Origin: Escherichia phage vB_EcoM_TH18
Reading direction: 5' to 3' (one strand)
Sequence record: ON075799
Length of the DNA stretch: 64,000 nt
Part shown: piece by piece, positions 764 through 46,979 of the stretch
How the letters are laid out: every line of letters begins with the position of its first letter
Position numbering within the stretch: position 1 is the stretch's first letter
Notes under the pieces: generated by a model
Databases searched by the model: none
What the model was told of the DNA's origin: nothing
Seen by the model: only the letters and a program-made list of their open reading frames with translations
Position numbers and translations under genes: made by a program

Positions 764-780
764 GTTAAATTATCTTTAAA

Positions 781-810
781 ATAGCTAATTACTCGCACAT
801 AATTAGCTAT
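781..810. repeat. perfect 10-bp-stem hairpin (atagctaatt / aattagctat) in inter-tRNA spacer
   Basis: Exact inverted repeat with 10-nt loop read directly from sequence. Confidence 0.6.
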
Positions 811-996
811 ACGCAACAACTCTCCAAGGAGAGCACACTAATGATCGATTACGATTATATGACTAAATTTAGACCATCATAAGTGTTTGGCTTACGCCAG
901 TAAAGAGCGGACTGCTCTGGGGTATCGGTAAGATGGTTGCAGCCATCTACCGAAAAATCACACCAAGCAACTAAACAAGCTACATTAAAGATAACT

Positions 997-1085
997 TGGA
1001 GGAGGCTGACAGAATCGAACTGTCACCATATCTCTACAGCGGGACTGGGTTCAAACCAGCTTGTGCACCATGCACCCCAGCCTCC
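997..1085 (-). tRNA. tRNA-Ser (anticodon UGA)
   Basis: Minus strand: acceptor ggaggct/agcctcc, anticodon loop TTTGAAC, long variable arm, T-arm gacag-TTCGATT-ctgtc, CCA encoded; 89 nt. Confidence 0.7.
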
Positions 1086-1156
1086 AAAGATAGCCTCTGC
1101 CGAGGATATACACCCAACAAAGGAGGCGCTCAGGTCAGAAGAAATCTGAGCCTTAA

Positions 1157-1250
1157 TGGAGGAAGATGCCAGACTTGAACTGGCACACCCATTTCTGGGT
1201 TACTATCTCCTTAGCAGGGAGATCCCTTACCAAATTAGGGTTAATCTTCC
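1157..1250 (-). tRNA. tRNA-Ser (anticodon GCU)
   Basis: Minus strand: acceptor ggaagat/atcttcc, anticodon stem tctcc/ggaga loop CTGCTAA, long variable arm, T-arm gccag-TTCAAGT-ctggc, CCA encoded. Confidence 0.7.
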
Positions 1251-1271
1251 AATACCTTAGTAATTAAAAAC

Positions 1272-1361
1272 TGGTGGAGAAGGAGAGAATCGAACTCTCA
1301 AGCCGTTTTACCAGTCAGCACATTTCCAATGTGCTTTCGTCGCCAATCGATTTGCTTCTCC
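1272..1361 (-). tRNA. tRNA-Ser (anticodon GGA)
   Basis: Minus strand: acceptor ggagaag/cttctcc, anticodon stem gcaca/tgtgc loop TTGGAAA, long variable arm, T-arm gagag-TTCGATT-ctctc, CCA encoded. Confidence 0.65.
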
Positions 1362-1370
1362 GTTTTAACT

Positions 1371-1446
1371 TGGCAGGGGATGGTTGATTCGAACAACCGA
1401 TCACGGGGTCAAAGCCCGTTGCATTAGGCCACTATGCTAATCCCCT
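1371..1446 (-). tRNA. tRNA-Gln (anticodon UUG)
   Basis: Minus strand: acceptor aggggat/atcccct, D-stem gcat/atgc, anticodon stem acggg/cccgt loop CTTTGAC, T-loop TTCGAAT, CCA encoded. Confidence 0.7.
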
Positions 1447-1452
1447 TTTGCA

Positions 1453-1527
1453 CGAGAGTGAGGAATAGAACCTCTTAGTCACTGGTTTTGGAGGCCAGCC
1501 TTCACCCAGTGAAGTTACGCTACTCTC
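1453..1527 (-). tRNA. tRNA-Trp (anticodon CCA)
   Basis: Minus strand: anticodon loop CTCCAAA, T-arm with TTCTATT loop, acceptor gagagt/actctc; CCA not encoded. Confidence 0.6.
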
Positions 1528-1535
1528 ATTAAAAA

Positions 1536-2093
1536 CTATTTTCGAAAAGGACTTATGAAAAATGCCAACATCACTCTCTCTCTTGAAAAAGCTCTGTCTT
1601 CAGGAACCACACTCTTCAGTTTCCAACCGACATAAATTCGCCAGTAAAATTGTTTTCCAAACAATCTAAAAGACGGGACAAACGCGAATACACCCCACGC
1701 ATTGTCATTCCACATCAACAAATAGCCTTGTTGGTTATCCTCCACATCAGAGCTTACATGGAGGTTTCCTTTCCACTTTGTCACAGATGTGATTTCACGT
1801 CCAAGTACGTGATAGGAGAAATTGTAGGCTTTATTTCTCCACAACCAAGCAACTCGTTGTAGGTAAACACCAAAACTTCCTATTTTACGGACTTCTTCCC
1901 ATCTCTCTATGTGTCCTCTATCACCGTCTATAGGATTATCATATGTCTCCATCCACCTGAAAATATAAGGCAGATGCCCTGTCTTCTCATTATAGAACGG
2001 AACAACAAAAGGAGCCAGAATAACACAGAGAACCGACATAACTGGGTCAAGAGGTGCTAACAGGATCCACGATAAATATTTTAAGTATCTCAT
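1536..2093 (-). CDS. hypothetical protein (185 aa, aromatic-rich, hydrophobic N-terminus)
   Basis: Long ORF between tRNA sub-clusters; no recognisable motif. Confidence 0.5.
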   Translation of the reverse strand: MRYLKYLSWILLAPLDPVMSVLCVILAPFVVPFYNEKTGHLPYIFRWMETYDNPIDGDRGHIERWEEVRKIGSFGVYLQRVAWLWRNKAYNFSYHVLGREITSVTKWKGNLHVSSDVEDNQQGYLLMWNDNAWGVFAFVPSFRLFGKQFYWRIYVGWKLKSVVPEDRAFSRERVMLAFFISPFRK

Positions 2094-2320
2094 GCAGGAT
2101 CAAGCCTAGATATAATGTACTGGTTTAAATCTGAATATGGGAAGATACTTTCAAAGATAACCTGTTTAAATCTGAAGCCGCACAAACCGAAAAGTACCTT
2201 CTGACACTCACCAAAAGAGCAATCTTTACCAACTTTTATCACAACCGTATCGGCAATCTGCACACTTTCTATCTCTTTAGATTCATGATGCCGTACTATG
2301 ATTACTTTAGAAACCATCAT
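2090..2320 (-). CDS. hypothetical protein (76 aa)
   Basis: ORF whose stop overlaps the start of the downstream gene by 4 bp (translational coupling pattern). Confidence 0.4.
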   Translation of the reverse strand: MMVSKVIIVRHHESKEIESVQIADTVVIKVGKDCSFGECQKVLFGLCGFRFKQVIFESIFPYSDLNQYIISRLDPA

Positions 2321-2445
2321 ACTCGTCCATATTAAAGCCTTCTACTAAAGATAGTAGATGTCTAGGGTTGGACCGCAAACGCAACCCCATGGAATTTGTT
2401 ACGGTCTTCAGTTGACCCAAGCGGATTTCATTGACATCTTTTAAC

Positions 2446-2520
2446 TGGAGCATCCAGAGGGTATCGAACCCTCGACTTCAGCTTGGAAGGCTGTAGTTTT
2501 CCCAATTAAACTATGGATGC
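2446..2520 (-). tRNA. tRNA-Gly (anticodon UCC)
   Basis: Minus strand: acceptor gcatcca/tggatgc, D-stem gttt/aaac, anticodon loop CTTCCAA, T-arm gaggg-TTCGATA-ccctc, CCA encoded. Confidence 0.7.
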
Positions 2521-2525
2521 ATATT

Positions 2526-2601
2526 TGGTGGGAGTGGTAGGCTCTGCCCCTACGTCCTCTCGATTATCGGTCGAGCGATCTACTAACTGATCTACACTCC
2601 C
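2526..2601 (-). tRNA. tRNA-Ile-like (anticodon GAU), atypical T-loop
   Basis: Minus strand: acceptor gggagtg/cactccc, D-stem gatc/gatc, anticodon stem ctcga/tcgag loop CCGATAA, T-stem gtagg/cctac but loop GGCAGAG lacks TTC; CCA encoded. Confidence 0.5.
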
Positions 2602-2665
2602 AAACTGTACTGGCCCAACAACCACGATTGGAGGGTATCGTCACACATCAAAGCCAGTACAGTTT
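2602..2665. repeat. 13-bp-stem hairpin (aaactgtactggc / gccagtacagttt, 38-nt loop) filling the spacer between two tRNAs
   Basis: Exact inverted repeat read from sequence; no T-loop, so not a tRNA. Confidence 0.55.
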
Positions 2666-2669
2666 TAGT

Positions 2670-2759
2670 TGGTGTGCCGTGATAGAGTCGAACTACCCGA
2701 GTCCCTTTCGAGACAGGAGATTTACAGTCTCCCCCGCTACCCCTACGGTCTAACGACAC
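2670..2759 (-). tRNA. tRNA-Tyr (anticodon GUA), type II
   Basis: Minus strand: acceptor gtgtcgt/acggcac (one G-U), anticodon stem ggaga/tctcc loop CTGTAAA, long variable region, T-arm ggtag-TTCGACT-ctatc, CCA encoded; D-arm irregular. Confidence 0.6.
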
Positions 2760-2760
2760 A

Positions 2761-3108
2761 TTAACCTTGTTTGAATTGAACAATATCCGTCGAGAACGGT
2801 TTAGCTGCCTTAATAGGTGCTTTTTCTGAGTTATCTTTTTCGAGTAACTCTTCGTTTTCCTCATCAAAGTAATCAGAAAGCATCTGCTCACCTTTCTCAA
2901 TAACATAACGAGCTATATTTTCTCTGATATTGTCTTTTGTATTCACATTCTTCATCAAATCCCTAAGAACCTGATGAGCTTCAGGAATCATTGCAATCAG
3001 ATTCGTTTTTAAATCTAGGATATTTTTCTCTAACTGAATTGCATTAGATTCCTCTTTCAGAGGACGACCTTTTCCTCTTCTACGTTTTGTAAGCTGCTTA
3101 GTAGCCAT
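2761..3108 (-). CDS. hypothetical protein (115 aa from internal ATG; acidic C-terminal half)
   Basis: ORF 2761-3333 trimmed to the Met at 3108 because the upstream part overlaps tRNA-Cys. Confidence 0.45.
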   Translation of the reverse strand: MATKQLTKRRRGKGRPLKEESNAIQLEKNILDLKTNLIAMIPEAHQVLRDLMKNVNTKDNIRENIARYVIEKGEQMLSDYFDEENEELLEKDNSEKAPIKAAKPFSTDIVQFKQG

Positions 3109-3193
3109 TTTAAAACCCCACTTAATGATATTATCAAATAAAAACATATCTGTCAAGTGGTATTTTAACATATTTACCAAGAAATTGAAAGTT

Positions 3194-3270
3194 TGGAGCA
3201 CGGTGTCGGACTTGAACCGACATATATCTGTTTTGCAGACAGATCCGTAACCAAATTCCAGCAACCGTGC
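3194..3270 (-). tRNA. tRNA-Cys (anticodon GCA)
   Basis: Minus strand: acceptor gcacggt/accgtgc, anticodon stem tctgt/acaga loop CTGCAAA, T-arm with TTCAAGT loop, CCA encoded. Confidence 0.7.
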
Positions 3271-3356
3271 AATAAGTACCCCAGGTAGAGAACCTATAGA
3301 GTGGGTCTTACGAGCCGCGCTGACGATTCTCAAGTTGGGGTTAATCTGGTCGAGGA

Positions 3357-3433
3357 GACAGGATTCGAACCTGTGACCTACGGCTTAGAAGGCCGCTGCT
3401 CTATCCAACTGAGCTACACCCCGAAAATAAGAA
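3357..3433 (-). tRNA. tRNA-Arg (anticodon UCU)
   Basis: Minus strand: canonical D-arm tagctcagttggatagagc, anticodon stem gcggc/gccgt loop CTTCTAA, T-arm acagg-TTCGAAT-cctgt, CCA encoded. Confidence 0.7.
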
Positions 3434-3623
3434 TGCTTTATAGTGTATGGTTACTCAACCTCACTCCAACTTCCACAGTTGGTGCTCTACGAGCATGACT
3501 ACGTTTGAAATCAACGTTGCGCACCGATAGCTTTCTCACGCATTGTATGCCTCATTCCCAACAAATGCTGATCAGACATTTATATCGAATAATATAAGCT
3601 AATACACTATAAAACAAACTTGT

Positions 3624-3720
3624 GGCTGGGTGATGGAATCGAACCACCTATGTATTCAACGGCTTCCCCGTCTATTTTCAGGATTATAAATCCTCGCCCT
3701 TGCCAAAGGGCTTACCCAGC
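3624..3720 (-). tRNA. tRNA-like gene, unusually long (about 97 nt); anticodon loop TTTATAA (UAU?) with about 30-nt insertion before the T-arm
   Basis: Minus strand: acceptor gctgggt/acccagc, D-stem gccc/gggc, 4-bp anticodon stem agga/tcct, extra hairpin acgg-ggaag-ccgt, T-arm ggtgg-TTCGATT-ccatc; CCA not encoded. Confidence 0.4.
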
Positions 3721-3722
3721 AT

Positions 3723-3797
3723 TGGTGCTCGCAGCAGGTTTCGAACCTGCAACCCCCTGCTTACAAGGCAGGTGCTCTACCGTTGAGCTATACGAGC
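3723..3797 (-). tRNA. tRNA-Thr (anticodon UGU)
   Basis: Minus strand: acceptor gctcgta/tgcgagc, D-stem gctc/gagc, anticodon stem cctgc/gcagg loop CTTGTAA, T-arm gcagg-TTCGAAA-cctgc, CCA encoded. Confidence 0.75.
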
Positions 3798-4162
3798 AAT
3801 AAGACATTGCTTCCGATTAACAGCCTTGAGGCTTTACAGACCATATCTTGTGAGCCATAACCTGTGCCAAGGATTTCAGATGATAAACGAAATTTTATCT
3901 TTCAAGAGTCAACTTTCAAGTTTCATCTTTTACATTTAACCATTGACCTTTATTGTATGAACTTTTACTTAGTGGAAACAACAAGGCATCTTCGTGTGCC
4001 TCGCTGCATCTATGTCCTGTATTATCCTCATACATATACGATACATGGTGGGGGATATTTAACCTCCAACCCCCAGGAGGCAAGATGATGTAAACTTCGT
4101 TAATCAAAAGCAATGTTTTAAATTTCAAAACAAAGGAACGATAATGATATTATCAGAGCCTT

Positions 4163-4810
4163 TTAGAGAGAGTGCTCAATCTCAATTTCTGTCTTAGCGT
4201 TTGACTCAGACAACGCAAAATCAACGTTAGACAAGAAATCTTCAATCTCTTCTTCAAGAGAACGAATCTTAGAAGCCAGTTCAAGAGGATCCACAACCGA
4301 TGGTGTGTTCATCATTCGAATAGGAGCTTCCACAGTCTTAATCTGCTCTGCATCTGGCGCTTTATCACGTTGGATATATGGCGCTCTTGCATTTTCAAGT
4401 TTATCTTCCAGAGATTTTTCTTCTTTTGCCAGAAGAAGCTGTGCAGAAGCACGCTGTGCACAAAGTTTGTTTAACAACTCTTGTTTAAAGCAAATCGTCC
4501 GTTTGCGTTCGATTGCCTCAGCAACTGTCATAGACACATTACCAATTTTGACAATTGTCTCAGCATTAGACTTAACAATTTTTGCTTTCAGTTCATCACG
4601 CACTGCCAAGAGGTCTTGCAGACTTTGATAGTCGTTGATCGCAGATTTCTTAAAATCATCAACAGAGCCGATATAACCCGGAATCTTACAATTATTCTCA
4701 GTTCCTTTTGCAATCTTAATACAATCAAGATTGTAGATACGCTTATTGATCTTATCTTCAATTTTAGAGATAGAAGCAAGTGCACGAGTTACGGAAATCT
4801 TAGTAGACAT
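4163..4810 (-). CDS. hypothetical protein (215 aa, predicted coiled-coil, K/E-rich)
   Basis: Long ORF; composition only. Confidence 0.55.
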   Translation of the reverse strand: MSTKISVTRALASISKIEDKINKRIYNLDCIKIAKGTENNCKIPGYIGSVDDFKKSAINDYQSLQDLLAVRDELKAKIVKSNAETIVKIGNVSMTVAEAIERKRTICFKQELLNKLCAQRASAQLLLAKEEKSLEDKLENARAPYIQRDKAPDAEQIKTVEAPIRMMNTPSVVDPLELASKIRSLEEEIEDFLSNVDFALSESNAKTEIEIEHSL

Positions 4811-4883
4811 GCGATCTCTCCTATGTAAATCAGCTTTGATAAAGTAACTATCCAGAAAAACAAAAACTATGTCAAGAAAAATT

Positions 4884-5075
4884 TTAATCTTTTACAGCAT
4901 CTTTTATAGAATCACAAAGATCTTGAACAACATCAGATGTCGGTGACAAAATCATCTCGTCGGCTGCTGCTATAGCATCTGATGCTAAATCAACAAACGG
5001 AGTTGTTACCGCAGAAGTCACTTCAACAGCCGTTATTGTTACTTCGCTTGCAATCTTAAGCAAAGATCCTATCAT
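4884..5075 (-). CDS. hypothetical protein (63 aa)
   Basis: Small ORF downstream of the tRNA-Met gene. Confidence 0.3.
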   Translation of the reverse strand: MIGSLLKIASEVTITAVEVTSAVTTPFVDLASDAIAAADEMILSPTSDVVQDLCDSIKDAVKD

Positions 5076-5151
5076 AATCTCAACCCTCCTGAATATCCGT
5101 GATTCCCTTTATTTAACGACGCTGGCTCACGGTGGCACTCTCGTCAATAAA

Positions 5152-5475
5152 CTATTTTTTAGTTTTCTTACCGTTTTCTACAGAAATGCTTGTTTTCTGT
5201 TTCGCTTCTCGTTCGCGCTTTGTTTTCCCAGTGCGAATACGATATGAAGCAGAAATAACTTCACCACCAATGACACGAGACACAGATTCGTAATACATTT
5301 CAGTATTACCGTCTTCATCTTTGCGTTTTTTCAGAACTGCTACAGTTTGCGTTTTACCACCAAGGCGCACATCGTGCGGTGCAGAATGTGTCTGCGTGGA
5401 TTTTGATCCAAACTGAAAAGGTTGCTTTATCGCCTCGATAGCTGACACCTTTTTAGCAGACTGTTTCTTAGCCAT
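5152..5475 (-). CDS. hypothetical basic protein (107 aa from internal ATG, Lys-rich)
   Basis: Internal ATG at 5475 preceded by GGAGG; Lys-rich termini. Confidence 0.45.
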   Translation of the reverse strand: MAKKQSAKKVSAIEAIKQPFQFGSKSTQTHSAPHDVRLGGKTQTVAVLKKRKDEDGNTEMYYESVSRVIGGEVISASYRIRTGKTKREREAKQKTSISVENGKKTKK

Positions 5476-5527
5476 TAAGTTTTCTCCTCCGAAAACAATA
5501 AACATAGTTTATTTCGTGTGCCACATT

Positions 5528-5604
5528 TGGTGGCCCCTGCTGGACTTGAACCAGCGACCAAGCGATTATGAGTCACCTGCTCTATCCAACTGAGCTAAGG
5601 GGCC
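5528..5604 (-). tRNA. tRNA-Met (anticodon CAU; elongator-type or Ile2-type)
   Basis: Minus strand: acceptor ggcccct/aggggcc (G1-C72 paired), canonical D-arm, anticodon loop CTCATAA, T-arm gctgg-TTCAAGT-ccagc, CCA encoded. Confidence 0.7.
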
Positions 5605-40024: not shown

Positions 40025-40142
40025 TATCAGCCATTACCTGAAACAATTCCTCTTCGGTAATTTTTCTTTTCTTGCGTTTTCCACTGCGCAGCGCCAGCGC
40101 AAGCTCTTTTTCATATGCTTTTCGTAGAGTTTTCTTACTCAT

Positions 40143-40616
40143 TTAAATCTCCTCTTTCCACAAACCATCTTTTTTAACCCACATTTTTTGGTTATCAGAA
40201 CCCCTGAACCTTTTGGTTGTAGGCTTAGACATATCATACTTACCATCTATAACAATGTCAACAAGATTTTTAATACTTTCAGGTATTTCTTCAAATAAAT
40301 ATCCTGTCCACAGCCAAATGTCTTTATCATCTCCGTAAACTGACCGTACCTTTAAAATAATCTTTATAACACCATCAATATTTTGTGGATCAAGTGGTTC
40401 CCCACCTAAAATTGAGAGTCCTTTTATTTGCTTACGTGCCAAATCCTTTATAATTCTATCTAAGTGTTCGTCTGTAAACATTTCACCATAGCTATATGAC
40501 CAAGCTCTTTGGTTAAAGCATCCGCGACAACAATGACCACATCCGCTAACCCAGAGGGAGCATCGCACTCCCTCCCCGTTGATCATATCTGTTGGTTCAT
40601 AACCGCAGAAATTCAT
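40143..40616 (-). CDS. nrdG: anaerobic ribonucleotide reductase activating protein (radical SAM)
   Basis: CxxxCxxC-type cluster (CGHCCRGC) near the N-terminus; 157 aa; adjacent to nrdD. Confidence 0.8.
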   Translation of the reverse strand: MNFCGYEPTDMINGEGVRCSLWVSGCGHCCRGCFNQRAWSYSYGEMFTDEHLDRIIKDLARKQIKGLSILGGEPLDPQNIDGVIKIILKVRSVYGDDKDIWLWTGYLFEEIPESIKNLVDIVIDGKYDMSKPTTKRFRGSDNQKMWVKKDGLWKEEI

Positions 40617-40993
40617 GTATGTTTCACTCTCTCTACAACTTCTTGCATCTTACCCTTGTTATAAGGACGGCTGTTTGGAGCAGACAAATATCCAGACACA
40701 CGTCTAATCACACTTATTGTTTCTTCATCATGATTGCCACAAGAAGGGCACTCGAATCCCTTAGCTGTGGCCTTGAACTCACCAGAGAAACCACACTCGT
40801 AACATCTATCTACAGGCTGATTTATACCAAAATAAGGGATGTGTTCATATCCATAATCCACTAAGGCTTCCAACGCTTGCATGTTGTTTCTTAGATTAGG
40901 AACTTCCACATAACCTATGTTACCACCATTGCTTATCTCAGCAAACCCACATTCATAATCCCATTTGGAGAATGGATCAGACGTTTTCCACAC
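40613..40993 (-). CDS. nrdD: anaerobic ribonucleoside-triphosphate reductase NrdD, C-terminal segment (exon 3; frame open upstream to about 41116)
   Basis: Zn ribbon CYECGF...CPSCG and glycyl-radical motif RRVSGYL; upstream in-frame YLTNSFH. Confidence 0.75.
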   Translation of the reverse strand: MWKTSDPFSKWDYECGFAEISNGGNIGYVEVPNLRNNMQALEALVDYGYEHIPYFGINQPVDRCYECGFSGEFKATAKGFECPSCGNHDEETISVIRRVSGYLSAPNSRPYNKGKMQEVVERVKHT

Positions 40994-41092
40994 TGGTTGA
41001 TGAAACGAGTTTGTCAGATAATCTCTTTCGATTAATCCTGGGTATGCTTCTTTAAGTTTTGTGGCAAATTTATAACACAGAGATTCTGCCGA

Positions 41093-41379
41093 TGTACCGC
41101 TGCTTTCGCAGTATTTTCACGGACTAGACTATATCACGATCTTGTGACCACTCACAAGACCCTCCACATTTCGCCATTCAAGGCTACTCTACTCGCTTCT
41201 TCACATCAGGTGAAGCTGATGCTATGCTTTCGATAGTCGTTAGAGACAATCTCTTGCCTACGGGGTTAGCTCTGCCCCAACAGGGTTTAGCCTTTCTTAC
41301 CAGCTTATTGTTTATTCAGCTATGCCCGTTTAGTGGAGTTATTCGACAACCATCACTGGTTGAAGGCCCAATTGTGTTT
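41093..41379 (-). other. intervening sequence B in nrdD (about 290 nt, no ORF); candidate group I intron
   Basis: Conserved NrdD motifs FSLYGTP and SAESLC...YLTNSFH are separated by non-coding sequence with stops in frame; boundaries approximate. Confidence 0.45.
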
Positions 41380-41871
41380 AGGCGTGCCATATAGGCTAAA
41401 TGCTAAACCACTTCGCTCTTTAAAATCAGCACAAATATCCTTCATATATTTCAAGATATTCATTGCCATCTCTTTACGAACTGGTTCGCCATACAAAATT
41501 TCAACTGCTTCATAAAGACCCACATAGCCAATACTGATTGATGCGTAGCCATTAAAGAAGAGTTTACTAATCTTTTCATCAGGTCCGAGCCGTGCAATAG
41601 CCCCCTCCATAAACATTGTGGGATTCTGGGATGCTTTTACATCCATCAATCTACCGACTCTAACCATGTGCGCTTTATACGCCATTTCCATGTGCTTTTC
41701 AAGCAATTCGGTAAACAGAGTTTTCTTAGATTTTGCTTCTGCTGCAATCATAGGTAAGTTTAGAGAGACAACACCAAGATTGAATCTACCATCATATTTC
41801 TCACCATGTTCTGTTGCATAATAAGATAAGAAACTTCTACACATTATGTTCGAAGTGGTTCGCAAGGCCAC
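41353..41871 (-). CDS. nrdD: NrdD, middle segment (exon 2)
   Basis: Contains MCRSFL and NLGVVSLNLP motifs as remembered from class III RNR. Confidence 0.7.
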   Translation of the reverse strand: MALRTTSNIMCRSFLSYYATEHGEKYDGRFNLGVVSLNLPMIAAEAKSKKTLFTELLEKHMEMAYKAHMVRVGRLMDVKASQNPTMFMEGAIARLGPDEKISKLFFNGYASISIGYVGLYEAVEILYGEPVRKEMAMNILKYMKDICADFKERSGLAFSLYGTPKHNWAFNQ

Positions 41872-42120
41872 TCCCGCACCACTACGTGCTGCTGCATGTC
41901 ACCATGCAGACCAGACCATATCTTCATGCTTAAAGCATGTCTGCCGTTTGGGGTGTCATCAGCTTACACTCTACATCCCTACATTCATCAGGATTGGTCG
42001 TTAGGCATTTACGGTTGATACCGATTTAGCACGGGATTCCCTCCATAGAGGATTCCCCCGTTTAGGCAGATTTTACATGAGCAGTTATAGTTTACCCATG
42101 CTTGTAACACGCCCGTCTGA
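41845..42120 (-). other. intervening sequence A in nrdD (about 275 nt, no ORF); candidate group I intron
   Basis: Lies between the motifs GDPNYD...KKVTGS (exon 1) and MCRSFL (exon 2); stops in all frames; boundaries approximate. Confidence 0.45.
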
Positions 42121-43260
42121 AGAACCTGTTACCTTTTTATTCAACGGTACAGATATGAAATCTGGATAAATCCTTTCAACACAACACTCCATGGCTAATT
42201 GCTTTAAGTCGTAGTTGGGATCGCCAGGTTTCATGTTTACACCATCTTCCAAGAAGAAGATAACTTTTGGAAAAACAGGTGTGACTTTGTCTTTGCCAAG
42301 TCCGTTTTTGTGAACAAGAAGATAATTCTTTGTAATCATTCTCCCAAAATAGGAAGTATCAAGCCCAAGACTCAAGGTGATAAATGGGCATTGACCGTTA
42401 GCACTCATCAAGGTATTTACCTGATAAAGCAATGTCTGCATAGCATCGTAAACATCTTTTTCCGTCATCTGCATAGCTACACCTTCTGGGTCTGGCAGCC
42501 ATTGCTCCTGACAAAATTTTAGATTTTTATCGTAACTTGCCTTGGCATATTGTTTTAATCCTTCATCAATATGGGTGTATGACTGACCACCATATTGAAC
42601 CGAAGAAACTGATTGGGATATCTGGCTAAGAATGGTACAGGCAACACCTATCGATTTCGGCTTTTCTATTTTTGCATTGCCAATTTTAAAACCGTTCTCC
42701 AACATATCCCTATAATTTACAAGACTGCAATTAGTTAATGGGCTTATCAAATAATCTAAGTCATGTATATGACCATAACCATTTGTATGCCATTCAGCCA
42801 ATTCTTTTGGTAGAATTTGAGTTAGTGAGACGTGCTTGCTAAGGATACCCGCGAGAAGATCACGATGGCTACTAACCACCCCACTTGGTTTATTAGCGTT
42901 TTCTTTAGTAAATTCATCGGCAGTTTGTTCTAAGAATCCCGTAATATCTGCAAACAGTTTTCCTTTACCTTCCCTAACGTTATCACGCGTTTTACGATAT
43001 TCAATATACGCCCGTGCAGCGTTCTTGAGGTCAAGATCCATTAGTGAATCTTCCACAATGCGGTGAATATCACAAACAGCCACTTTCTCTTGCGGTGGTT
43101 CTGATTTTTCCAGAGTTTCATAGGCTTGCTCGCCAACTGCACACGCCAGAGGATATGATTTCTCACCATAACCAGCAGCAATTAAAGCGGCTTCTGCCGC
43201 TTTAATAACTTTCACACCATCATAATCTTCTTCACGCCCATCACGTTTAACAACTTTCAT
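42085..43260 (-). CDS. nrdD: NrdD, N-terminal segment (exon 1, ATP-cone plus catalytic core start)
   Basis: N-terminal MKVVKRDGREEDYD ATP-cone-like start; GDPNYD motif near the end. Confidence 0.75.
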   Translation of the reverse strand: MKVVKRDGREEDYDGVKVIKAAEAALIAAGYGEKSYPLACAVGEQAYETLEKSEPPQEKVAVCDIHRIVEDSLMDLDLKNAARAYIEYRKTRDNVREGKGKLFADITGFLEQTADEFTKENANKPSGVVSSHRDLLAGILSKHVSLTQILPKELAEWHTNGYGHIHDLDYLISPLTNCSLVNYRDMLENGFKIGNAKIEKPKSIGVACTILSQISQSVSSVQYGGQSYTHIDEGLKQYAKASYDKNLKFCQEQWLPDPEGVAMQMTEKDVYDAMQTLLYQVNTLMSANGQCPFITLSLGLDTSYFGRMITKNYLLVHKNGLGKDKVTPVFPKVIFFLEDGVNMKPGDPNYDLKQLAMECCVERIYPDFISVPLNKKVTGSSDGRVTSMGKL

Positions 43261-43263
43261 TGT

Positions 43264-43566
43264 TTATTCCCCCAGTTCAGTATTAATAAACGCAATAAAT
43301 TCATCTGCCGTGCCAACATATACAGTATCGACACCGCACTCATAAAAAATCCGTGGGACTGTTTTTGGGATAACAGGAGAGCATTTTAAGACCAATTCCT
43401 CTTTGGTGAAATCTTCTCCTAATTTCTTATAGATAAAGTTAAGTCCTTTTTGTTTTGCAAACTCTTTTGCTCTTACACAATGAGGGCAATTATCTTTCCC
43501 ATAAATTACAAACGTGCATTCTTTAAAGTTCATCTTAAAAATCCCAGATTTCTTCTTCTGCATCAT
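43264..43566 (-). CDS. glutaredoxin/NrdH-like redoxin (CPHC active site)
   Basis: CPHC dithiol motif near the N-terminus; 100 aa; between nrdB and nrdD. Confidence 0.7.
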   Translation of the reverse strand: MMQKKKSGIFKMNFKECTFVIYGKDNCPHCVRAKEFAKQKGLNFIYKKLGEDFTKEELVLKCSPVIPKTVPRIFYECGVDTVYVGTADEFIAFINTELGE

Positions 43567-44623
43567 TCACCGTTGTGTTAACACGATAGTCTGTGTTGGA
43601 CATTTCTTGGTTAGCCGTCTGCTGCAATGCAGGATTCATCCATACTTGCATTAACGGTAAAGGGTCTTTGGAAGGAGGGTTGAAGTCCCTATCAAATCCA
43701 AAATGGTCATAGATAGGAGCACAATTATAATCAACCCACTCTTTCAGCAATGATTCGTTAAGGCCAATGATTGCCCTACCATCACTGAAGATATAGTGAC
43801 TCCAACTATACTCTTTAAATCTAACTTCGTCAAGAATTTCTTTCAATTCATGTTTGATGGCATTAAAGCTGTTCAACCATACAGGATCTTCTAACAGAAT
43901 TTCAATAATTGCAAAGTCGTTTTTTGTATGGAGAATCTCATCAAGCATTATTTTTTGCACAAGCTGTGCAACTTGAACAAAAATCCCCTGTTCCGCTAGA
44001 GCAAATGTGCACGCAAAACTGGATATGAACTCTATGGCCTCTAGGCCAAGCAGAGCAAACATAGCTCTCAGAATACCTCTACGGATATCTTCTTTATCTA
44101 TAGAAGCAGGATCCAGTCTGTATTTAGCACCAAGAACTTCTAGTTCACGCATATATTTGACAATGACACCAGATCTGTTTAAAACTTCTTGGTTGTTTTG
44201 TACTTCTTCAATAATTTCTCGTGCATTTGGCAAACACTGTCTGACAATTTCTGAGTATGTCAAAGCATGAAGCACTTCGATTTCTGCCTGTTTCATCATC
44301 AAAGCGTATAATTCACTGTTTGTGATGAATGGGGCAAATAAACAGATAATTGATTGCGCTGCAACACTATCAGCTTCCCATTGCCACATCAAAGTTTGCA
44401 CCATAACATCATAGGTTGATTTACTGCATGTAGCAAAATCTGAAATTGATTGTACTAAATCAACTTCGTCTTCTGACCAGTCTTGCTCTTTTTGTTTTTT
44501 ATACAAATCGAAAAGTTTTGGGTATTTTTTATTAATGGAGTCATACATCCCCATCTGCTGACCAAGAAACAGAGGGTAATCCCCAGTTTTATGTGCTGTG
44601 TTTTCTGTATTGAATAATGCCAT
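43535..44623 (-). CDS. nrdB: ribonucleotide reductase small subunit (class Ia beta)
   Basis: 362 aa, immediately downstream of nrdA, with Glu/His-containing helices typical of a di-iron site. Confidence 0.8.
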   Translation of the reverse strand: MALFNTENTAHKTGDYPLFLGQQMGMYDSINKKYPKLFDLYKKQKEQDWSEDEVDLVQSISDFATCSKSTYDVMVQTLMWQWEADSVAAQSIICLFAPFITNSELYALMMKQAEIEVLHALTYSEIVRQCLPNAREIIEEVQNNQEVLNRSGVIVKYMRELEVLGAKYRLDPASIDKEDIRRGILRAMFALLGLEAIEFISSFACTFALAEQGIFVQVAQLVQKIMLDEILHTKNDFAIIEILLEDPVWLNSFNAIKHELKEILDEVRFKEYSWSHYIFSDGRAIIGLNESLLKEWVDYNCAPIYDHFGFDRDFNPPSKDPLPLMQVWMNPALQQTANQEMSNTDYRVNTTVNDAEEEIWDF

Positions 44624-44663
44624 TTAAACCTCGATGAAAAAGGGGCTTTCGCCCCTTAATAAA

Positions 44664-46979
44664 TTACAATGCACAACTCTCGCAGTACGGATCTTCAACT
44701 GAACTGTCTGCAATCAAAGGATAGTTCTTTTTAGTTTCTTCCTCAGCTTGTCTCTTCGCGTGAAGTTCCGCTGTCAAGGAATCACCAGCACCAACCTTAG
44801 AATTTAGATAGTACCACGTTTTCATACCCACTTTTGTTGCTTTGATAAGATACCCTAGCTGCTCTTTCATAGAAATCTTACCATCTTTTTGTTTGGTGTA
44901 ATCAAGGTAGAGATCTGCACTGATCGTCTGCCCAGTAAATTTCTGGAATAGAGCATAGATATCTATCATGTCATTTGTTGGTGTATCCCAAGCAGATGTG
45001 TAGTAATCTTTTAATTCTTCATAATCAGGGACAATAAAAAGAACCTGACCTTGAGGTGATTTTTTAAAGATCACATGATCACGAACAGGGTATATACCAT
45101 TTGTTGTGTTTGTTGCCAAAGACGAACTTTCGTTCGGCATGTAGGCTTCCAGCACACTGTTCCTTATTCCACCAAAATCAATAATCTCCTTGCGTAATGA
45201 CTCCCAATCCTGTTTGAGTGTGGGATCCTCCACCACACTATCAATCGCCTTATTATAGGTATCGATCGGTAGCCAGCCAGACGGGTATTTTGTTTTACCA
45301 ATCCACTCACAAACACCACGTTCTTTAGCTAACCGCAGACTTGCCTTATGAAGGCTGTAGCTGTGCAATTCAGCTAAATCATGTACCAACTGTTTGCTCT
45401 CAGGAGAACCATAAGGAACTCTATGTGTCGCAATATAATGTGCCACGTTTGTGATGCCAACACCAATAGACCTGCGTTTTTTAACTGTACTCTCCATATT
45501 TTCATACGGATAGGTCATGATATCCATCACGTTGTCAATCATGAGTACGGTATAGTATGCCACATCTTCATATTCTTCTGGTTTAACTCTGCCAGCAACC
45601 AACGAGGCCAAGAAGCACAAAGCAACTTCACCATCTTCAGCATCATACTTGAAGAGGTTACGCATATCTGAATAACCTTTTGTTGGGAGTGATATCTCAC
45701 AACACAGATTGCTTGAATAAATAATTTCCTTAAATGGGGTGTGTCTATTCATCTCGTCAGTCCAGTAAACATAAAGTCTACCAGTTTCTGTACGCTGGGT
45801 AATTATCTCTATTGCCAAATCTCTTGCCTTAATCCAAGTTTTTGGAATAGAAGCATCTTTGGCAATCTTATCAACTTCAGAGTCAAACTCCTCCATTGTC
45901 ATAGTGAACATCCCATCATGGAGTTGTGGGGCATCTTTATAAGATACCAGCATCCAATCCAAGTTTTTCGCAACACGATTGACAAAAGATTTGTTAATAC
46001 CAACGGAATAATCCATTGTGTTAATTCGCTTAGATGTCACAGTCATAGGGTTACGTAAGCGAATTAATTCATCAATTTGTGGATCAAGAGCTAAGAAAGA
46101 AACTGTTGCTGAACCACCTCTGGACTGTTGCCTATTCTCTTTTACCCCAGCATCAATACCACGATAGTAAGGTAGTTTGCCCATATGCTTGATTGTGTTC
46201 CCTCTAACACCATCACCAATAGAGCGAGATGCTAGATAATAACCAATACCAGCTTGATTAACAGTCATCGTATATGCAACTTCTCGTGCAACACCGATGG
46301 ATTTAGCTGTATCGTCTGCCTTGATTACACAACATGAAGCATATCCTGTTTTTCCGGTACGAAGCCCGTTAAGGTATGGTGTCGGGGCGTTAATCTTAAG
46401 ATCAGACAAATATGTGTACAATTTTGTCACATCTTTAATACGACGAGCCTTGGGCATATTCTTCATAACTGCCATTGCCATCCCCATAAACATCATCTGC
46501 GGGGATTCAAAAAGGATGTCATTAACAGCGTCCTTAATACCGTACTTATCACGGAACTGTTTCAATACAGCATACCCATAAGACAGGTCTTTACTATGGT
46601 CGATAACAGCTTCTAATGCTGTTAGTTCCAAACCTGTGTATTTCATATCTTCCCAATAGCCTGAATCAACCATACGGTGATAGAAATTTGGCAAACTAGG
46701 AATTTTTGTGAACCCACCAAAGGCTTCTTTATAAATCTGCCCGACTAAAACTCTACCAGCCATCCGTGCATGTGCTTCATCTTTACGGCTAATACACGCA
46801 TCTATAATAGCTTGGTTAACTTCTTTTGTTGTGCAACCATCATATAATCTTCTATATGCGTCAAGAGCAATGTGTGACCAGTTGCCGTTGCCATCATCAC
46901 CAAAAATGGCAGCTTTGTTAAGACGCTCAGGATCGAACACTACCTCTGACCCATCGCTTTTAATAACTTTAGTAATCAA
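44664..46979 (-). CDS. nrdA: ribonucleotide reductase large subunit (class Ia alpha)
   Basis: 771 aa; N-terminal ATP-cone-like start (VIKSDGSEVVFDPERL), NxCxE-like active-site segment (SNLCCEIS). Confidence 0.85.
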   Translation of the reverse strand: MITKVIKSDGSEVVFDPERLNKAAIFGDDGNGNWSHIALDAYRRLYDGCTTKEVNQAIIDACISRKDEAHARMAGRVLVGQIYKEAFGGFTKIPSLPNFYHRMVDSGYWEDMKYTGLELTALEAVIDHSKDLSYGYAVLKQFRDKYGIKDAVNDILFESPQMMFMGMAMAVMKNMPKARRIKDVTKLYTYLSDLKINAPTPYLNGLRTGKTGYASCCVIKADDTAKSIGVAREVAYTMTVNQAGIGYYLASRSIGDGVRGNTIKHMGKLPYYRGIDAGVKENRQQSRGGSATVSFLALDPQIDELIRLRNPMTVTSKRINTMDYSVGINKSFVNRVAKNLDWMLVSYKDAPQLHDGMFTMTMEEFDSEVDKIAKDASIPKTWIKARDLAIEIITQRTETGRLYVYWTDEMNRHTPFKEIIYSSNLCCEISLPTKGYSDMRNLFKYDAEDGEVALCFLASLVAGRVKPEEYEDVAYYTVLMIDNVMDIMTYPYENMESTVKKRRSIGVGITNVAHYIATHRVPYGSPESKQLVHDLAELHSYSLHKASLRLAKERGVCEWIGKTKYPSGWLPIDTYNKAIDSVVEDPTLKQDWESLRKEIIDFGGIRNSVLEAYMPNESSSLATNTTNGIYPVRDHVIFKKSPQGQVLFIVPDYEELKDYYTSAWDTPTNDMIDIYALFQKFTGQTISADLYLDYTKQKDGKISMKEQLGYLIKATKVGMKTWYYLNSKVGAGDSLTAELHAKRQAEEETKKNYPLIADSSVEDPYCESCAL

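What the first reader, a model, noticed from the sequence alone, without database searches (positions are those of the whole stretch)
40613..43260. Anaerobic RNR gene nrdD split into three pieces by two ORF-less intervening sequences
Conserved class III RNR motifs, as I remember them from E. coli NrdD, occur in order but in three separate reading frames: GDPNYD...KKVTGS (42085-43260), MCRSFL...FSLYGTP (41353-41871) and SAESLC...YLTNSFH...RRVSGYL (40613-41116). About 275 nt and 290 nt of sequence with stops in all frames lie between them. Insertions at highly conserved positions with no ORF inside are typical of small self-splicing group I introns, which are common in phage RNR genes. The alternative is a decaying pseudogene, but nrdG downstream is intact.
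Basis: partly seen in the sequence, partly recalled or inferred. Interest (0 to 1): 0.6.

Follow-up and report, generated by a model that had tools for sequence, protein, structure and literature searches.

The report
Two group I introns split nrdD
The phage's anaerobic ribonucleotide reductase gene (nrdD) is interrupted by two small group I introns with no genes inside them, a classic kind of phage selfish element; one is widespread and already annotated elsewhere, and the other sits at a site I found occupied only in this phage lineage.

Summary
nrdD (minus strand, 43260-40613) has three exons: 43260-42094, 41841-41380 and 41089-40613. They are separated by a 252-nt and a 290-nt insert. Both inserts lie exactly between codons, follow a U and end in G. 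Joining the exons gives a 701-aa NrdD that matches the NrdD equivalog model end to end.

Intron 1 (42093-41842) scores 79.8 bits against Rfam RF00028. Its core is 77% identical to the T4 nrdD (sunY) intron. It occupies the same SMG|CRS site as introns in phi92, JSE and Vequintavirus phages.

Intron 2 (41379-41090) gets no Rfam hit. A profile built only from DNA-polymerase and terminase introns of Herelleviridae phages finds it full length (E = 3e-51). Its helices P1-P9, including the P3/P7 pseudoknot, covary.

Public assemblies hold near-identical relatives that lack intron 2 precisely, that lack intron 1, or that carry an intein in exon 1.

This is a new member of a known kind, of modest interest. 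Splicing itself was not tested.

The parts
42094..43260 (-). nrdD exon 1 (389 codons: ATP-cone and N-terminal half of NrdD; ends ...VTGSSDGRVTSMG)
   Evidence: The ORF is listed. The boundary comes from alignment to intron-less PVP-SE1, phiTE and muut genes. The last base is U (42094). Pfam ATP-cone and NRDD match.
41842..42093 (-). Intron 1: 252-nt group I intron with no ORF (subgroup IA-like, T4 sunY type), inserted directly before the codon of the Cys that aligns with T4 NrdD C290
   Evidence: RF00028 scores 79.8 bits, E = 1e-18, although that alignment wrongly runs 39 nt into exon 1. The core is 77% identical to the T4 nrdD intron. Homologues sit at the same site in phi92, phiWec187, HMD-6 and JSE. 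Covariation supports P3-P9.2. It ends in G (41842). An in-frame stop follows after 2 codons (AAA CTA TAA).
42076..42100 (-). Intron 1 P1: 5' exon CAUGGGU (42100-42094) pairs with the internal guide GCUCAUG (42082-42076), with U.G at the splice site
   Evidence: Read directly from the sequence. The same guide sequence occurs in the T4 sunY intron, where the exon reads AUGAGU.
41380..41841 (-). nrdD exon 2 (154 codons: CRSFLSYY...FSLYGTP)
   Evidence: Boundaries. The first codon TGT encodes the Cys that aligns with T4 NrdD C290. The last base is U (41380).
41090..41379 (-). Intron 2: 290-nt group I intron with no ORF (IA-like, with P7.1/P7.2; SPO1/Herelleviridae DNA-polymerase-intron type), inserted between the Pro and Ala codons of the conserved YGTP|AESL motif
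   Evidence: There is no Rfam hit even at E <= 10. A profile of 7 Herelleviridae introns, built without the window sequence, hits 41378-41091 with E = 3e-51. On alignment A1, 86.8% of cells pair against 33-41% in slid controls, and 41 of 65 pairs have double changes. The MFE fold recovers P1, P2, P3, P4, P5, P8 and P9. A relative that is 95-97% identical (L049) lacks exactly these 290 nt. An in-frame stop follows after 8 codons.
41366..41383 (-). Intron 2 P1: exon GCCU plus intron AA (41383-41378) pairs with UUGGGC (41371-41366), with U.G at the splice site
   Evidence: P1 covaries with the exon in relatives: EFLK1 has CGGU|AA with UUGCCG, and EF24C has CCCU|AA with UUGGGG.
41127..41238 (-). 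Intron 2 P7 pseudoknot (GACUA 41238-41234 with UAGUC 41131-41127). It encloses P7.1/P7.2 (41222-41173), the P3 3' strand GUGGAG (41167-41162), P8 (41161-41138) and J8/7 GUGAUA
   Evidence: P7 pairs in 100% of cells with one compensated pair. P8 has 8 of 10 pairs compensated. Nt 139-196 are 57/58 identical to the Av-05 DNA-polymerase intron.
40613..41089 (-). nrdD exon 3 (158 codons plus stop: AESLCYKF..., a four-Cys motif CYEC...CPSC, the glycyl-radical motif RRVSGYL, ...VKHT*)
   Evidence: Pfam Gly_radical matches residues 578-681 of the joined protein.
40143..40616 (-). nrdG, the activase for NrdD; intact, and its start overlaps the nrdD stop (ATGA)
   Evidence: NCBIfam TIGR02491 NrdG scores 171 bits against a cut-off of 126.
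43264..43566 (-). Glutaredoxin-like gene immediately upstream of nrdD (context only)
   Evidence: Pfam Glutaredoxin, E = 4.6e-8.

Best explanation
[quoted passage not shown] The window is identical to Escherichia phages 18-1-2, 19-1-2 and 24-2-1.

Proposed mechanism. After transcription, each intron folds into the group I core: P1 (5' exon paired to an internal guide sequence), the P4-P6 domain, and the P3-P8/P7 pseudoknot with the extra P7.1/P7.2 hairpins typical of subgroup IA. A free guanosine bound in P7 attacks the bond after the exon-terminal U (42094 for intron 1, 41380 for intron 2). The released exon 3'-OH then attacks after the intron's terminal G (41842, 41090), which joins the exons. 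The mature mRNA encodes a 701-aa NrdD that works with the downstream NrdG. In-frame stop codons 2 and 8 codons into the introns would stop ribosomes before they enter the ribozyme cores.

Origins. Intron 1 belongs to the T4 sunY intron lineage. It sits at a site shared with phi92-like, Vequintavirus and JSE phages, immediately 5' of the codon for the Cys that aligns with T4 C290. Intron 2 belongs to the lineage of DNA-polymerase and terminase introns of SPO1-like (Herelleviridae) phages and of Vequintavirinae DNA-polymerase genes. It sits at a second conserved motif, YGTP|AESL.

Shown versus inferred. Shown here: the boundaries, the homology, the covarying structure, the intact joined reading frame, and the presence/absence alleles in close relatives. 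Inferred: catalysis, splicing in infected cells, and how the introns (neither with an endonuclease gene) reached or keep these sites.
For: 1. Precise insertion. Against intron-less PVP-SE1, phiTE and muut genes, the inserts fall exactly between codons. Each follows U and ends in G.

2. The joined product is a bona fide NrdD.
- NCBIfam NF006732 matches 1-700 in one stretch at 831 bits (cut-off 657).
- Pfam NRDD, Gly_radical and ATP-cone all match.
- It is colinear with PVP-SE1 NrdD at 84% identity over the 355-aa segment searched (C-terminal half).
- It aligns to T4 NrdD across both junctions, with the C290-equivalent Cys and the RRVSGYL glycyl-radical motif present.

3. Intron 1.
- RF00028 scores 79.8 bits.
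- Its core is 77% identical to the T4 sunY intron, with the same guide sequence GCUCAUG.
- Homologues sit at the identical ATGGGT|AAACT junction in phi92 (whose GenBank record annotates a 'spliced variant'), phiWec187, HMD-6 and JSE.
- 94% of pair cells are standard pairs against 32-42% in slid controls, with 20 compensated pairs. One is a P7 pair unique to the window.

4. Intron 2.
- It is colinear along its whole length with introns that split DNA-polymerase and terminase genes.
- nhmmer gives E = 3e-51 with the window sequence excluded from the profile.
- 86.8% of cells pair against 33-41% in controls, 41 of 65 pairs are compensated, and 0 of 500 shuffles reach this.
- P1 covaries with each host exon.

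5. Presence/absence alleles in proteins >= 90% identical.
- P0015 and P0010 read through ...YGTPAESLCY..., so intron 2 is absent.
- P0013 reads through ...TSMGCRSFL..., so intron 1 is absent.
- Contig L049 is 97.5% and 95% identical on the two flanks and lacks exactly the 290 nt.

6. Context. Group I introns in phage RNR genes, and splicing-competent introns in Vequintavirinae, are documented (PMC3653736, PMC2988022, PMC7344957).
Against:
- Intron 2 gets no RF00028 hit even at E <= 10. The model also misses its relative in phage LY2 and gives the EF24C terminase intron only 36.6 bits, so this looks like a blind spot of the model rather than a missing structure.
- No convincing P10 pairing was found for intron 2. 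For intron 1 the possible P10 (UGUAG/CUAUA) is not contiguous with P1.
- Protein alignment alone leaves a 1-nt ambiguity at the intron 2 junction (CCU|GCA or CC|GGCA). It is resolved only by the U(-1)/terminal-G rule and the P1 model.
- Neither intron has an endonuclease gene, and no homologue of the relatives' intron endonucleases is in the window. Mobility is therefore unexplained.
Confidence: 0.93

Rival explanations
1. The inserts are group I introns by descent, but one or both no longer splice. NrdD would then be made as separate fragments that assemble, as reported for the mobE-split NrdA of Aeromonas phage Aeh1, or the gene would be non-functional.
For: - Splicing is untested.
- Intron 1 ends in ATG in frame with exon 2, so gene callers do produce an 'MCRSFL...' protein.
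- A split RNR subunit that works without splicing has been reported (PMC3653736, PMC7344957).
- An intron in phage CB7 did not splice in RT-PCR (PMC7344957).
Against: - All core helices of both introns are intact. The window's own substitutions are compensated, for example P7 in intron 1.
- By eye, no Shine-Dalgarno-like sequence precedes the ATG at the end of intron 1 or any start near exon 3.
- Exon 3 has no start codon until 32 codons in, which would remove conserved sequence.
- The exons are conserved at 95-97% with intact frames across alleles with and without the introns.
Confidence: 0.04
2. nrdD is a decaying pseudogene, broken by frameshifts or junk insertions.
For: GenBank annotates three separate 'large subunit' CDSs with no intron. 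Some relatives, such as Klebsiella phage KpS8, lack nrdDG altogether, so the cassette is dispensable.
Against: - The inserted blocks lie exactly at codon boundaries and there is no other lesion.
- The joined product matches the NrdD equivalog end to end above its cut-off.
- Both inserts are structured, homologous ribozymes.
- nrdG is intact.
- The same exons are kept intact in many contigs.
Confidence: 0.02
3. The inserts are another kind of intervening element: a group II intron, an intein, or a translational bypass or frameshift site.
For: A close relative does carry an intein, but in exon 1 at a different site (P0011).
Against: - At 252 and 290 nt with no ORF, they are far below group II intron size, and no group II Rfam family was hit even at E <= 10.
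- Stops in all sense frames exclude inteins.
- Inserts of this length with a group I fold are not bypass elements.
Confidence: 0.01

Closest known systems
Bacteriophage T4 nrdD (sunY) group I intron, subgroup IA, which carries the I-TevII gene
   Same: Same host gene. The ribozyme core from the guide sequence to P9 is 77% identical to intron 1, and the internal guide GCUCAUG is identical. P7.1/P7.2 are present.
   Different: The T4 intron sits about 110 codons upstream, at AYE|YEV after exon AUGAGU. The window's intron sits at SMG|CRS after AUGGGU. T4 carries the I-TevII ORF downstream of P9. The window intron has no ORF and has a different 3' tail (P9.1/P9.2).
nrdD introns of phi92-like phages (Justusliebigvirus/Phapecoctavirus; GenBank notes a 'spliced variant' for phi92), Vequintavirus phages (HMD-6, JEP1 and others) and the T4-like phage JSE
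   Same: The insertion site is identical (ATGGGT|AAACT...ATAATG|TG). They are 78-89% identical to intron 1.
   Different: Many carry an HNH or other endonuclease ORF in the P6 loop (phiWec187, HMD-6, JSE). phi92 and PD06 keep a remnant there. The window has a compact P6a hairpin like T4's. None of these has a second intron downstream.
DNA-polymerase and large-terminase group I introns of SPO1-like (Herelleviridae) phages: Bacillus SPG24, BSP12 and SIOphi; Enterococcus EFLK1 and EF24C; Lactobacillus Semele
   Same: Intron 2 is colinear with them from P1 to the terminal G at 64-79% identity. They share the P2-P9 architecture and the conserved P4-P5 segment ACGGGCAUAGCUGAAUAA...AAUAAGCUG.
   Different: The host gene differs (nrdD), and so does the host range (an enterobacterial phage). 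Intron 2 has no endonuclease ORF, whereas SPG24, EFLK1 and BSP12 carry an ORF in P6: HNH in SPG24 and EFLK1, annotated 'hypothetical protein' in BSP12.
DNA-polymerase introns of Vequintavirinae (Av-05; Vequintavirus AlexBoehm, annotated as a joined CDS)
   Same: Nt 139-196 of intron 2 (P7 to the start of P7.2) are 57/58 identical to the Av-05 intron. The P1-P3 and P7-P8 regions are about 70-72% identical to both.
   Different: Their P4-P6 region is not detectably similar to that of intron 2. They carry an HNH ORF and sit in the DNA polymerase gene.
Staphylococcus phage Twort nrdE with two group I introns, and Bacillus phage SPbeta RNR genes with introns plus an intein
   Same: An RNR large-subunit gene carries more than one self-splicing element at conserved, functionally important positions (as summarised in PMC3653736).
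   Different: Those are class Ib genes in phages of Gram-positive hosts. Here it is class III nrdD in a coliphage.

Membership tests
Group I intron (intron 1, 42093-41842) | The 5' exon ends in U, which forms a U.G wobble with an internal guide sequence in P1 | tested here: met
   Exon CAUGGGU (42100-42094) pairs with GCUCAUG (42082-42076) over 7 bp, with a terminal U.G. The guide is conserved in T4 and phi92.
Group I intron (intron 1) | The last intron nucleotide is G | tested here: met
   The intron ends ...CAUAAUG (41842) and exon 2 starts UGU.
Group I intron (intron 1) | Conserved core: P3-P8 with the P3/P7 pseudoknot, the P4-P6 domain, and J8/7 with the P7 3' strand (GAUAURGUC) | tested here: met
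   RF00028 scores 79.8 bits against a gathering score of 50. On alignment A3, 94% of cells pair and 20 pairs are compensated. P7 GACCA/UGGUC is compensated relative to GACUA/UAGUC in the other four sequences.
Group I intron (intron 2, 41379-41090) | U.G pair at the 5' splice site in P1, and a 3'-terminal G | tested here: met
   GCCU|AA pairs with UUGGGC, and the intron ends ...ACAUCG. P1 covaries with the host exon in EFLK1 and EF24C.
Group I intron (intron 2) | Conserved core: P3-P8 with the P3/P7 pseudoknot, the P4-P6 domain, and J8/7 GAUAUAGUC | tested here: met
   On alignment A1, 86.8% of cells pair against 33-41% in slid controls, 41 of 65 pairs are compensated, and 0 of 500 shuffles reach this. 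P2, P3, P5, P5a, P7, P7.1, P8 and P9 each have compensated pairs. The MFE fold recovers the nested helices.
Rfam RF00028 Intron_gpI (a detection model, not a definition) | Score at or above the gathering threshold (50 bits) | tested here: not met
   This applies to intron 2 only. It gets no hit at E <= 10. The model also misses the homologous LY2 intron and gives the EF24C terminase intron 36.6 bits, E = 2e-6. This is a sensitivity limit of one covariance model for this lineage, not a failed structural criterion.
Group I intron (both introns) | Guanosine-dependent self-splicing | not testable with these tools
   This needs in vitro transcription with GTP labelling, or RT-PCR from infected cells.
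Subgroup IA group I introns | Extra hairpins P7.1 and P7.2 between the 5' strand of P7 and the 3' strand of P3 | tested here: met
   Intron 1: nt 100-119 and 125-141. Intron 2: nt 158-177 and 196-207. P7.1 is well compensated in both introns (4 of 5 and 6 of 7 pairs). P7.2 has 1 of 4 pairs compensated in intron 1. In intron 2 only 42% of P7.2 cells pair in alignment A1, where that hairpin's length varies. The T4 record calls its homologue a 'group 1A intron'. Assignment to IA2 specifically was not tested.
Mobile (homing) group I intron | An intron-encoded homing endonuclease | tested here: not met
   There are stops in all sense frames and no endonuclease-sized ORF. No homologue of nine endonucleases encoded in or next to related introns is found anywhere in the window. 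Presence/absence alleles show gain or loss, but not how it happened.
Class III anaerobic ribonucleotide reductase NrdD (joined product) | Full-length match to the NrdD equivalog, a glycyl-radical domain, the Cys aligning with T4 C290, and a C-terminal four-Cys motif | tested here: met
   NF006732 scores 831 bits (cut-off 657) and TIGR02487 scores 528 bits (cut-off 326). Pfam NRDD and Gly_radical match. The alignment to T4 NrdD (PDB 1h78) shows C390 at the T4 C290 position, RRVSGYL, and CYEC...CPSC.
Group II intron | Six-domain structure with domain V; usually over 600 nt, often with a reverse-transcriptase ORF | tested here: not met
   The inserts are 252 and 290 nt with no ORF. No group II Rfam family was hit at E <= 10.
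Intein | An in-frame protein insertion | tested here: not met
   Both inserts have stops in every sense frame. A real intein does occur in a relative's exon 1 (P0011).

The most novel reading that the evidence does not exclude
This nrdD may be a hot spot where three independent selfish elements are still moving among near-identical coliphages. The three are a LAGLIDADG intein at the position aligning with T4 N78-C79, a sunY-type intron at the position aligning with T4 C290, and a DNA-polymerase-type intron at YGTP|AESL.

On this reading, intron 2 reached a previously unoccupied nrdD site without an endonuclease of its own. That could have happened by reverse splicing or through an endonuclease acting in trans. 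Its 57/58-identical block shared with the Av-05 DNA-polymerase intron would reflect recombination with the lineage's resident DNA-polymerase intron.

Intron 1 and T4 sunY share the guide sequence GCUCAUG but occupy two different AUGRGU sites in the same gene. That would be a natural example of guide-sequence-directed site switching.
Probability: 0.3. Interest if true: 0.5.

Novelty: new member of a known kind. Interest (0 to 1): 0.3.

Why it matters
- Annotation. The three GenBank records list nrdD as three separate proteins with no intron. The correct product is one 701-aa enzyme.
- Detection. The standard Rfam model misses intron 2 and its Herelleviridae relatives, so scans that rely on RF00028 under-count phage group I introns.
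- Intron biology. The lineage offers natural alleles that are 95-97% identical and carry or lack each of two endonuclease-free introns and an intein in one gene. That is usable material for asking how ORF-less introns spread. It also shows one intron family shared between phages of Gram-positive and Gram-negative hosts.
- None of this changes the general picture that phage RNR genes are favoured intron and intein targets.

Tried and rejected
- Rfam at a permissive threshold on 40500-42400 found nothing for gap 2, only chance miRNA and lncRNA matches.
- My first guess for the intron 1 junction, after VTGS, followed the Rfam alignment's P1 and was wrong. Intron-less homologues read VTGSSDGxVTSMG|CRSF, so the Rfam match extends 39 nt into exon 1.
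- Exact intron 2 words (22- and 25-mers) and the predicted ligated junction are absent from IMG/VR.
- An 18-nt exon-intron junction word gave 5 metagenome hits. All are chance, since only the word itself matches.
- Eleven IMG/VR nrdD relatives are all uninterrupted at junction 2.
- Complete E. coli genomes hold no copy of this nrdD.
- Family members retrieved from IMG/VR with a conserved P4-P5 word are no closer than about 68-88% over partial lengths.
- No covariance model was built. The nhmmer profile already gave E = 3e-51, and a model of about 310 columns would probably exceed the calibration limit.
The intron-1-less allele and the intein allele therefore rest on protein sequences only.
- I found no convincing P10 pairing for intron 2.
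- I did not survey every phage nrdD for other elements at the YGTP|AESL site. 'New site' therefore means only that none was seen in the records inspected.

Full report
**Identity of the window.** Positions 40100-43600 are 100% identical to Escherichia phages 18-1-2, 19-1-2 and 24-2-1. These are partial-genome scaffolds filed under Vequintavirinae, Avunavirus. Those records annotate three separate 'ribonucleotide reductase of class III, large subunit' CDSs and no intron. By the neighbouring nrdA/nrdB genes, the nearest other genomes are Klebsiella and Proteus Mydovirus phages at only about 74% identity. One of them, KpS8, lacks nrdD and nrdG at this position altogether.

**Checking the observation.** A three-frame translation of the minus strand shows NrdD sequence in order, broken by two stretches with stops in every sense frame. 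Two details are wrong. First, exons 1 and 2 are in the same frame. Second, the listed piece ends are ORF ends, not exon ends.

I fixed the junctions by aligning to the closest uninterrupted genes. These are Salmonella phage PVP-SE1 (84% identity over the 355-aa C-terminal segment searched, colinear), Pectobacterium phage phiTE and Escherichia phage muut. The intron-less genes read ...VTGSSDG(K/R)V(T/S)SMG-CRSFLS... and ...FSLYGTP-AESLCY(R/K)FA.... The window reads:
- ...AGCATGGGT | AAACTATAA...CATAATG | TGTAGAAGT...
- ...GGCACGCCT | AAACACAAT...GTACATCG | GCAGAATCT...

The resulting map is:
- exon 1: 43260-42094
- intron 1: 42093-41842 (252 nt)
- exon 2: 41841-41380
- intron 2: 41379-41090 (290 nt)
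- exon 3: 41089-40613

Both inserts lie between codons, both follow a U, and both end in G. For intron 2, protein alignment alone would also allow a junction one base to the left. The U(-1)/terminal-G rule and the P1 pairing decide between them.

**The joined gene is intact.**
- The 701-aa conceptual product matches the NCBIfam NrdD equivalog NF006732 over residues 1-700 in a single stretch (831 bits, cut-off 657).
- Pfam NRDD (E = 1.8e-165), Gly_radical and ATP-cone all match.
- It aligns to the crystallised T4 NrdD across both junctions. The first codon of exon 2 encodes the Cys at the T4 C290 position. Intron 2 lies between the residues aligned with T4 P444 and A445, inside the conserved Y(G/S)TPAE(S/N)L motif. 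The RRVSGYL glycyl-radical motif and the C-terminal four-Cys motif are present.
- nrdG, which overlaps the nrdD stop, passes the NrdG equivalog cut-off.
This rules out a decaying pseudogene.

**Intron 1.**
- Rfam RF00028 matches 42132-41892 at 79.8 bits, E = 1e-18. That alignment forces its first helix onto exon sequence. The true 5' end is 42093.
- P1 is the exon CAUGGGU paired with GCUCAUG (intron nt 12-18), with U.G at the splice site. There is no P2.
- The rest follows the IA pattern: P3 UCUGCC/GGCAGA, P4-P6 with a compact P6a hairpin, P7 GACCA/UGGUC, P7.1/P7.2, P8, P9 with a GUGA loop, and two further 3' hairpins.
- I aligned it with homologues from phi92, HMD-6, JSE and T4, with their ORFs removed. 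94% of pair cells are standard pairs against 32-42% when partners are slid. 20 pairs carry changes on both sides.
- The core is 77% identical to the T4 nrdD (sunY) intron.
- Homologues at exactly the same junction (ATGGGT|AAACT) occur in phi92, phiWec187, HMD-6 and JSE. The phi92 record annotates a 'spliced variant'.
- Where an endonuclease ORF is present (phiWec187, HMD-6, JSE), it sits in the P6 loop, between window intron nt 69 and 84. phi92 and PD06 keep a remnant of it there.
Intron 1 is therefore a member of a widespread family that is already annotated.

**T4 uses a different site.** The T4 intron is not at this site. It lies about 110 codons upstream, at AYE|YEV, after the exon sequence AUGAGU. 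Both introns carry the same guide sequence GCUCAUG, and the window's target reads AUGGGU. One ribozyme lineage thus occupies two look-alike sites in the same gene. That is what guide-sequence-directed transposition would produce, but I did not test it.

The protein database supports wide use of both sites. It holds many NrdD C-terminal fragments of 310-345 aa, which start at the Cys site, and of about 420-435 aa, which start near the T4 site.

**Intron 2.**
- RF00028 finds nothing here even at E <= 10.
- The MFE fold is 2.9 sd below shuffles. It contains P1 (GCCU|AA with UUGGGC), P2 (CAACCA-GUGA-UGGUUG), P3 (CUCCAC/GUGGAG), P4 (ACGGG/CCCGU) enclosing two hairpins, a 10-bp P8, and P9 with a GAAA loop.
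- The R/S elements GACUA and GAUAUAGUC form the P7 pseudoknot, which the fold cannot show.
- In the phage collection, blastn finds the full intron only in the three identical phages. Partial matches of 68-79% fall in Bacillus, Enterococcus, Staphylococcus, Listeria and Lactobacillus phages of the Herelleviridae. There they lie in gaps that split DNA-polymerase or large-terminase genes, some annotated as group I introns.
- A more permissive local blastn shows colinearity from P1 to the 3' end. The HNH ORFs of SPG24 and EFLK1, and an unnamed ORF in BSP12, sit in P6.
- An nhmmer profile of seven such introns, built without the window sequence, hits the window at 41378-41091 over model positions 2-311 with E = 3e-51. 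It finds no other full copy in the 64 kb.
- On the 8-sequence alignment with my structure, 86.8% of cells pair against 33-41% for slid controls. 41 of 65 pairs have changes on both sides, and no shuffle reaches the observed values. P2, P3, P5, P5a, P7, P7.1, P8 and both P9 helices each have compensated pairs.
- P1 covaries with the host exon: window GCCU|AA with UUGGGC, EFLK1 CGGU|AA with UUGCCG, EF24C CCCU|AA with UUGGGG.
- RF00028 also misses the LY2 relative and scores the EF24C terminase intron only 36.6 bits. The missing Rfam hit is therefore a limit of that model for this lineage.

**Where intron 2 may come from.** The lower-ranked blastn hits include Vequintavirinae DNA-polymerase introns. 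In Av-05, the type Avunavirus, the second DNA-polymerase intron is 57/58 identical to intron 2 over nt 139-196 (P7 to the start of P7.2). Its P1-P3 region is about 73% identical, and its P4-P6 region is not detectably similar. The Vequintavirus AlexBoehm intron is 72% identical across P7-P8. By eye, the 3' tail of that DNA-polymerase intron also resembles the P9.1/P9.2 tail of intron 1. Intron 2 thus looks like a mosaic within a family that spans phages of Gram-positive and Gram-negative hosts. The likely partner for recombination, or the source, is the DNA-polymerase intron resident in the same phage lineage. This is inference.

**Presence/absence alleles.** The exon-2 and exon-3 ORF products fall in a 90%-identity cluster of 119 proteins from NCBI, ENA and Logan assemblies. 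Among the 40 members read:
- 320- and 313-aa proteins read straight through ...FSLYGTPAESLCYKF.... Intron 2 is absent. The leader RTTSNIM, derived from intron 1, is present.
- Many 163- and 170-aa proteins end ...YGTPRHNWAFNQ. Intron 2 is present, with AGA instead of AAA at its start. Two of the variants alone account for 52 contigs.
- A 263-aa protein reads through ...GRVTSMGCRSFLSYY... and ends ...YGTPRHNWAFNQ. Intron 1 is absent and intron 2 is present.
- An 865-aa protein is exon 1 with an insert of about 470 aa between PLTN and C(T/S)LVNY. The insert starts with Cys and ends ...HN before Cys. It carries LAGLIDADG domains (E = 3.8e-16) and a weak intein-splicing match. This is an intein at the position that aligns with T4 N78-C79.

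At the DNA level, a Logan contig (L049) is 97.5% and 95.0% identical to the window on either side. It lacks exactly the 290 nt of intron 2, and its flanking codons are CCA GCG rather than CCT|GCA. This is the strongest evidence that the insert is a discrete, recently gained or lost element. It also shows that intron 2 is not confined to the three marmot-derived phages.

**Mechanism.** Splicing by the standard two-step, guanosine-initiated group I pathway is inferred from family membership. So is the idea that the early in-frame stops (2 and 8 codons in) keep ribosomes out of the ribozyme cores. Related Vequintavirinae introns have been shown to splice by RT-PCR (PMC7344957). Neither intron encodes an endonuclease, and the window holds no homologue of nine endonucleases encoded in or next to related introns. 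How the introns spread is therefore open: an endonuclease acting in trans, reverse splicing, or plain recombination between co-infecting phages.

**Comparison with the literature.** Group I introns in phage RNR genes are classic. Examples are T4 nrdB and nrdD, Twort nrdE with two introns, and SPbeta with introns plus an intein. A survey found nrdD to be the RNR gene most often split in phages (PMC3653736, PMC2988022). Vequintavirinae are known to be rich in introns, inteins and HNH genes (PMC7344957, PMC3606486). I found no paper in the held library that describes the SMG|CRS nrdD intron or an intron at YGTP|AESL, but that library is incomplete.

**Verdict.** This is a new member of a known kind: intron 1 is already known, and intron 2 is a new occurrence at a site not otherwise seen in the records I inspected. 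Interest is modest (0.3). The value lies in correcting the annotation, in exposing a blind spot of RF00028, and in a natural set of near-identical alleles with and without three selfish elements.

Noticed in passing
window 21-5604 (minus strand): A cluster of 13 tRNA genes, by Rfam RF00005. This is typical of large virulent myophages. I did not examine it further.
   Followed up: no
L028 (T4 NC_000866, nrdD at 43535-46385) compared with window 42076-42100: The T4 sunY intron and window intron 1 share 77% core identity and the identical guide sequence GCUCAUG. They sit at different nrdD sites with look-alike targets: AUGAGU at AYE|YEV in T4, and AUGGGU at SMG|CRS here. This is compatible with guide-sequence-directed site switching.
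   Followed up: partly
L047:3001-3058 (Escherichia phage Av-05 DNA polymerase intron) compared with window 41241-41184: A 58-nt block (P7 to the start of P7.2) is 57/58 identical between intron 2 and the second Av-05 DNA-polymerase intron. The flanks are about 70% identical or unalignable. By eye, the 3' tail of that intron also resembles the P9.1/P9.2 tail of intron 1. This suggests modular recombination among introns of the lineage.
   Followed up: partly
Proteins P0004, P0008, P0010, P0013, P0015 and locus L049: Relatives at >= 90% protein identity carry alleles without intron 2 or without intron 1. L049 lacks exactly window 41379-41090, and the flanking codons are CCA GCG instead of CCT|GCA.
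   Followed up: yes
Protein P0011 (865 aa); the insertion point corresponds to about window 42726 (after ...ISPLTN): A relative's exon 1 carries an intein of about 470 aa with LAGLIDADG domains, at the position that aligns with T4 N78-C79. Its ORF still ends with the intron 1 read-through ...SMGKL. One gene in this lineage can therefore hold an intein plus introns.
   Followed up: partly
GenBank OK136181, OK181860, OK181862 (L001:3341-5988): nrdD is annotated as three or four independent 'large subunit' CDSs with no intron or join. RefSeq also carries the exon-2 fragment as an E. coli protein, WP_201263717.1.
   Followed up: yes
window 41090-41379; L007, L009: Rfam RF00028 fails to detect intron 2 and the LY2 intron, and scores the EF24C terminase intron below its gathering threshold (36.6 bits). 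This intron lineage is probably under-counted in automated scans.
   Followed up: partly
window 41842-41844: The last three bases of intron 1 are ATG, in frame with exon 2. Gene callers therefore emit an 'MCRSFL...' protein (P0003, P0006). I saw no Shine-Dalgarno-like sequence upstream. Whether this start is ever used on unspliced RNA is unknown.
   Followed up: no
L002:3355-3633 (phi92) and L013:2711-3000 (PD06) compared with window 42005-42030: The ORF-less intron 1 homologues of phi92 and PD06 keep 27-38 extra nt in P6 that match the ends of the HNH ORF seen in phiWec187. The window has a compact P6a hairpin like T4's. These look like different histories of endonuclease loss.
   Followed up: partly
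L046 (Klebsiella phage KpS8, 93500-99500): In this nearest-neighbour group, gene order runs nrdB, glutaredoxin, two small ORFs, endolysin, PhoH, with no nrdD or nrdG. The nrdDG pair is a variable cassette in Vequintavirinae, as PMC7344957 noted for Certrevirus.
   Followed up: partly
Records MG065639-MG065690 ('Campylobacter phage' A150, C3, A142 and others): These records, labelled as Campylobacter jejuni phages, give the same hit statistics as phi92-like and Vequintavirus coliphages for nrdD and intron 1. The host label may be wrong, or the samples mixed.
   Followed up: no
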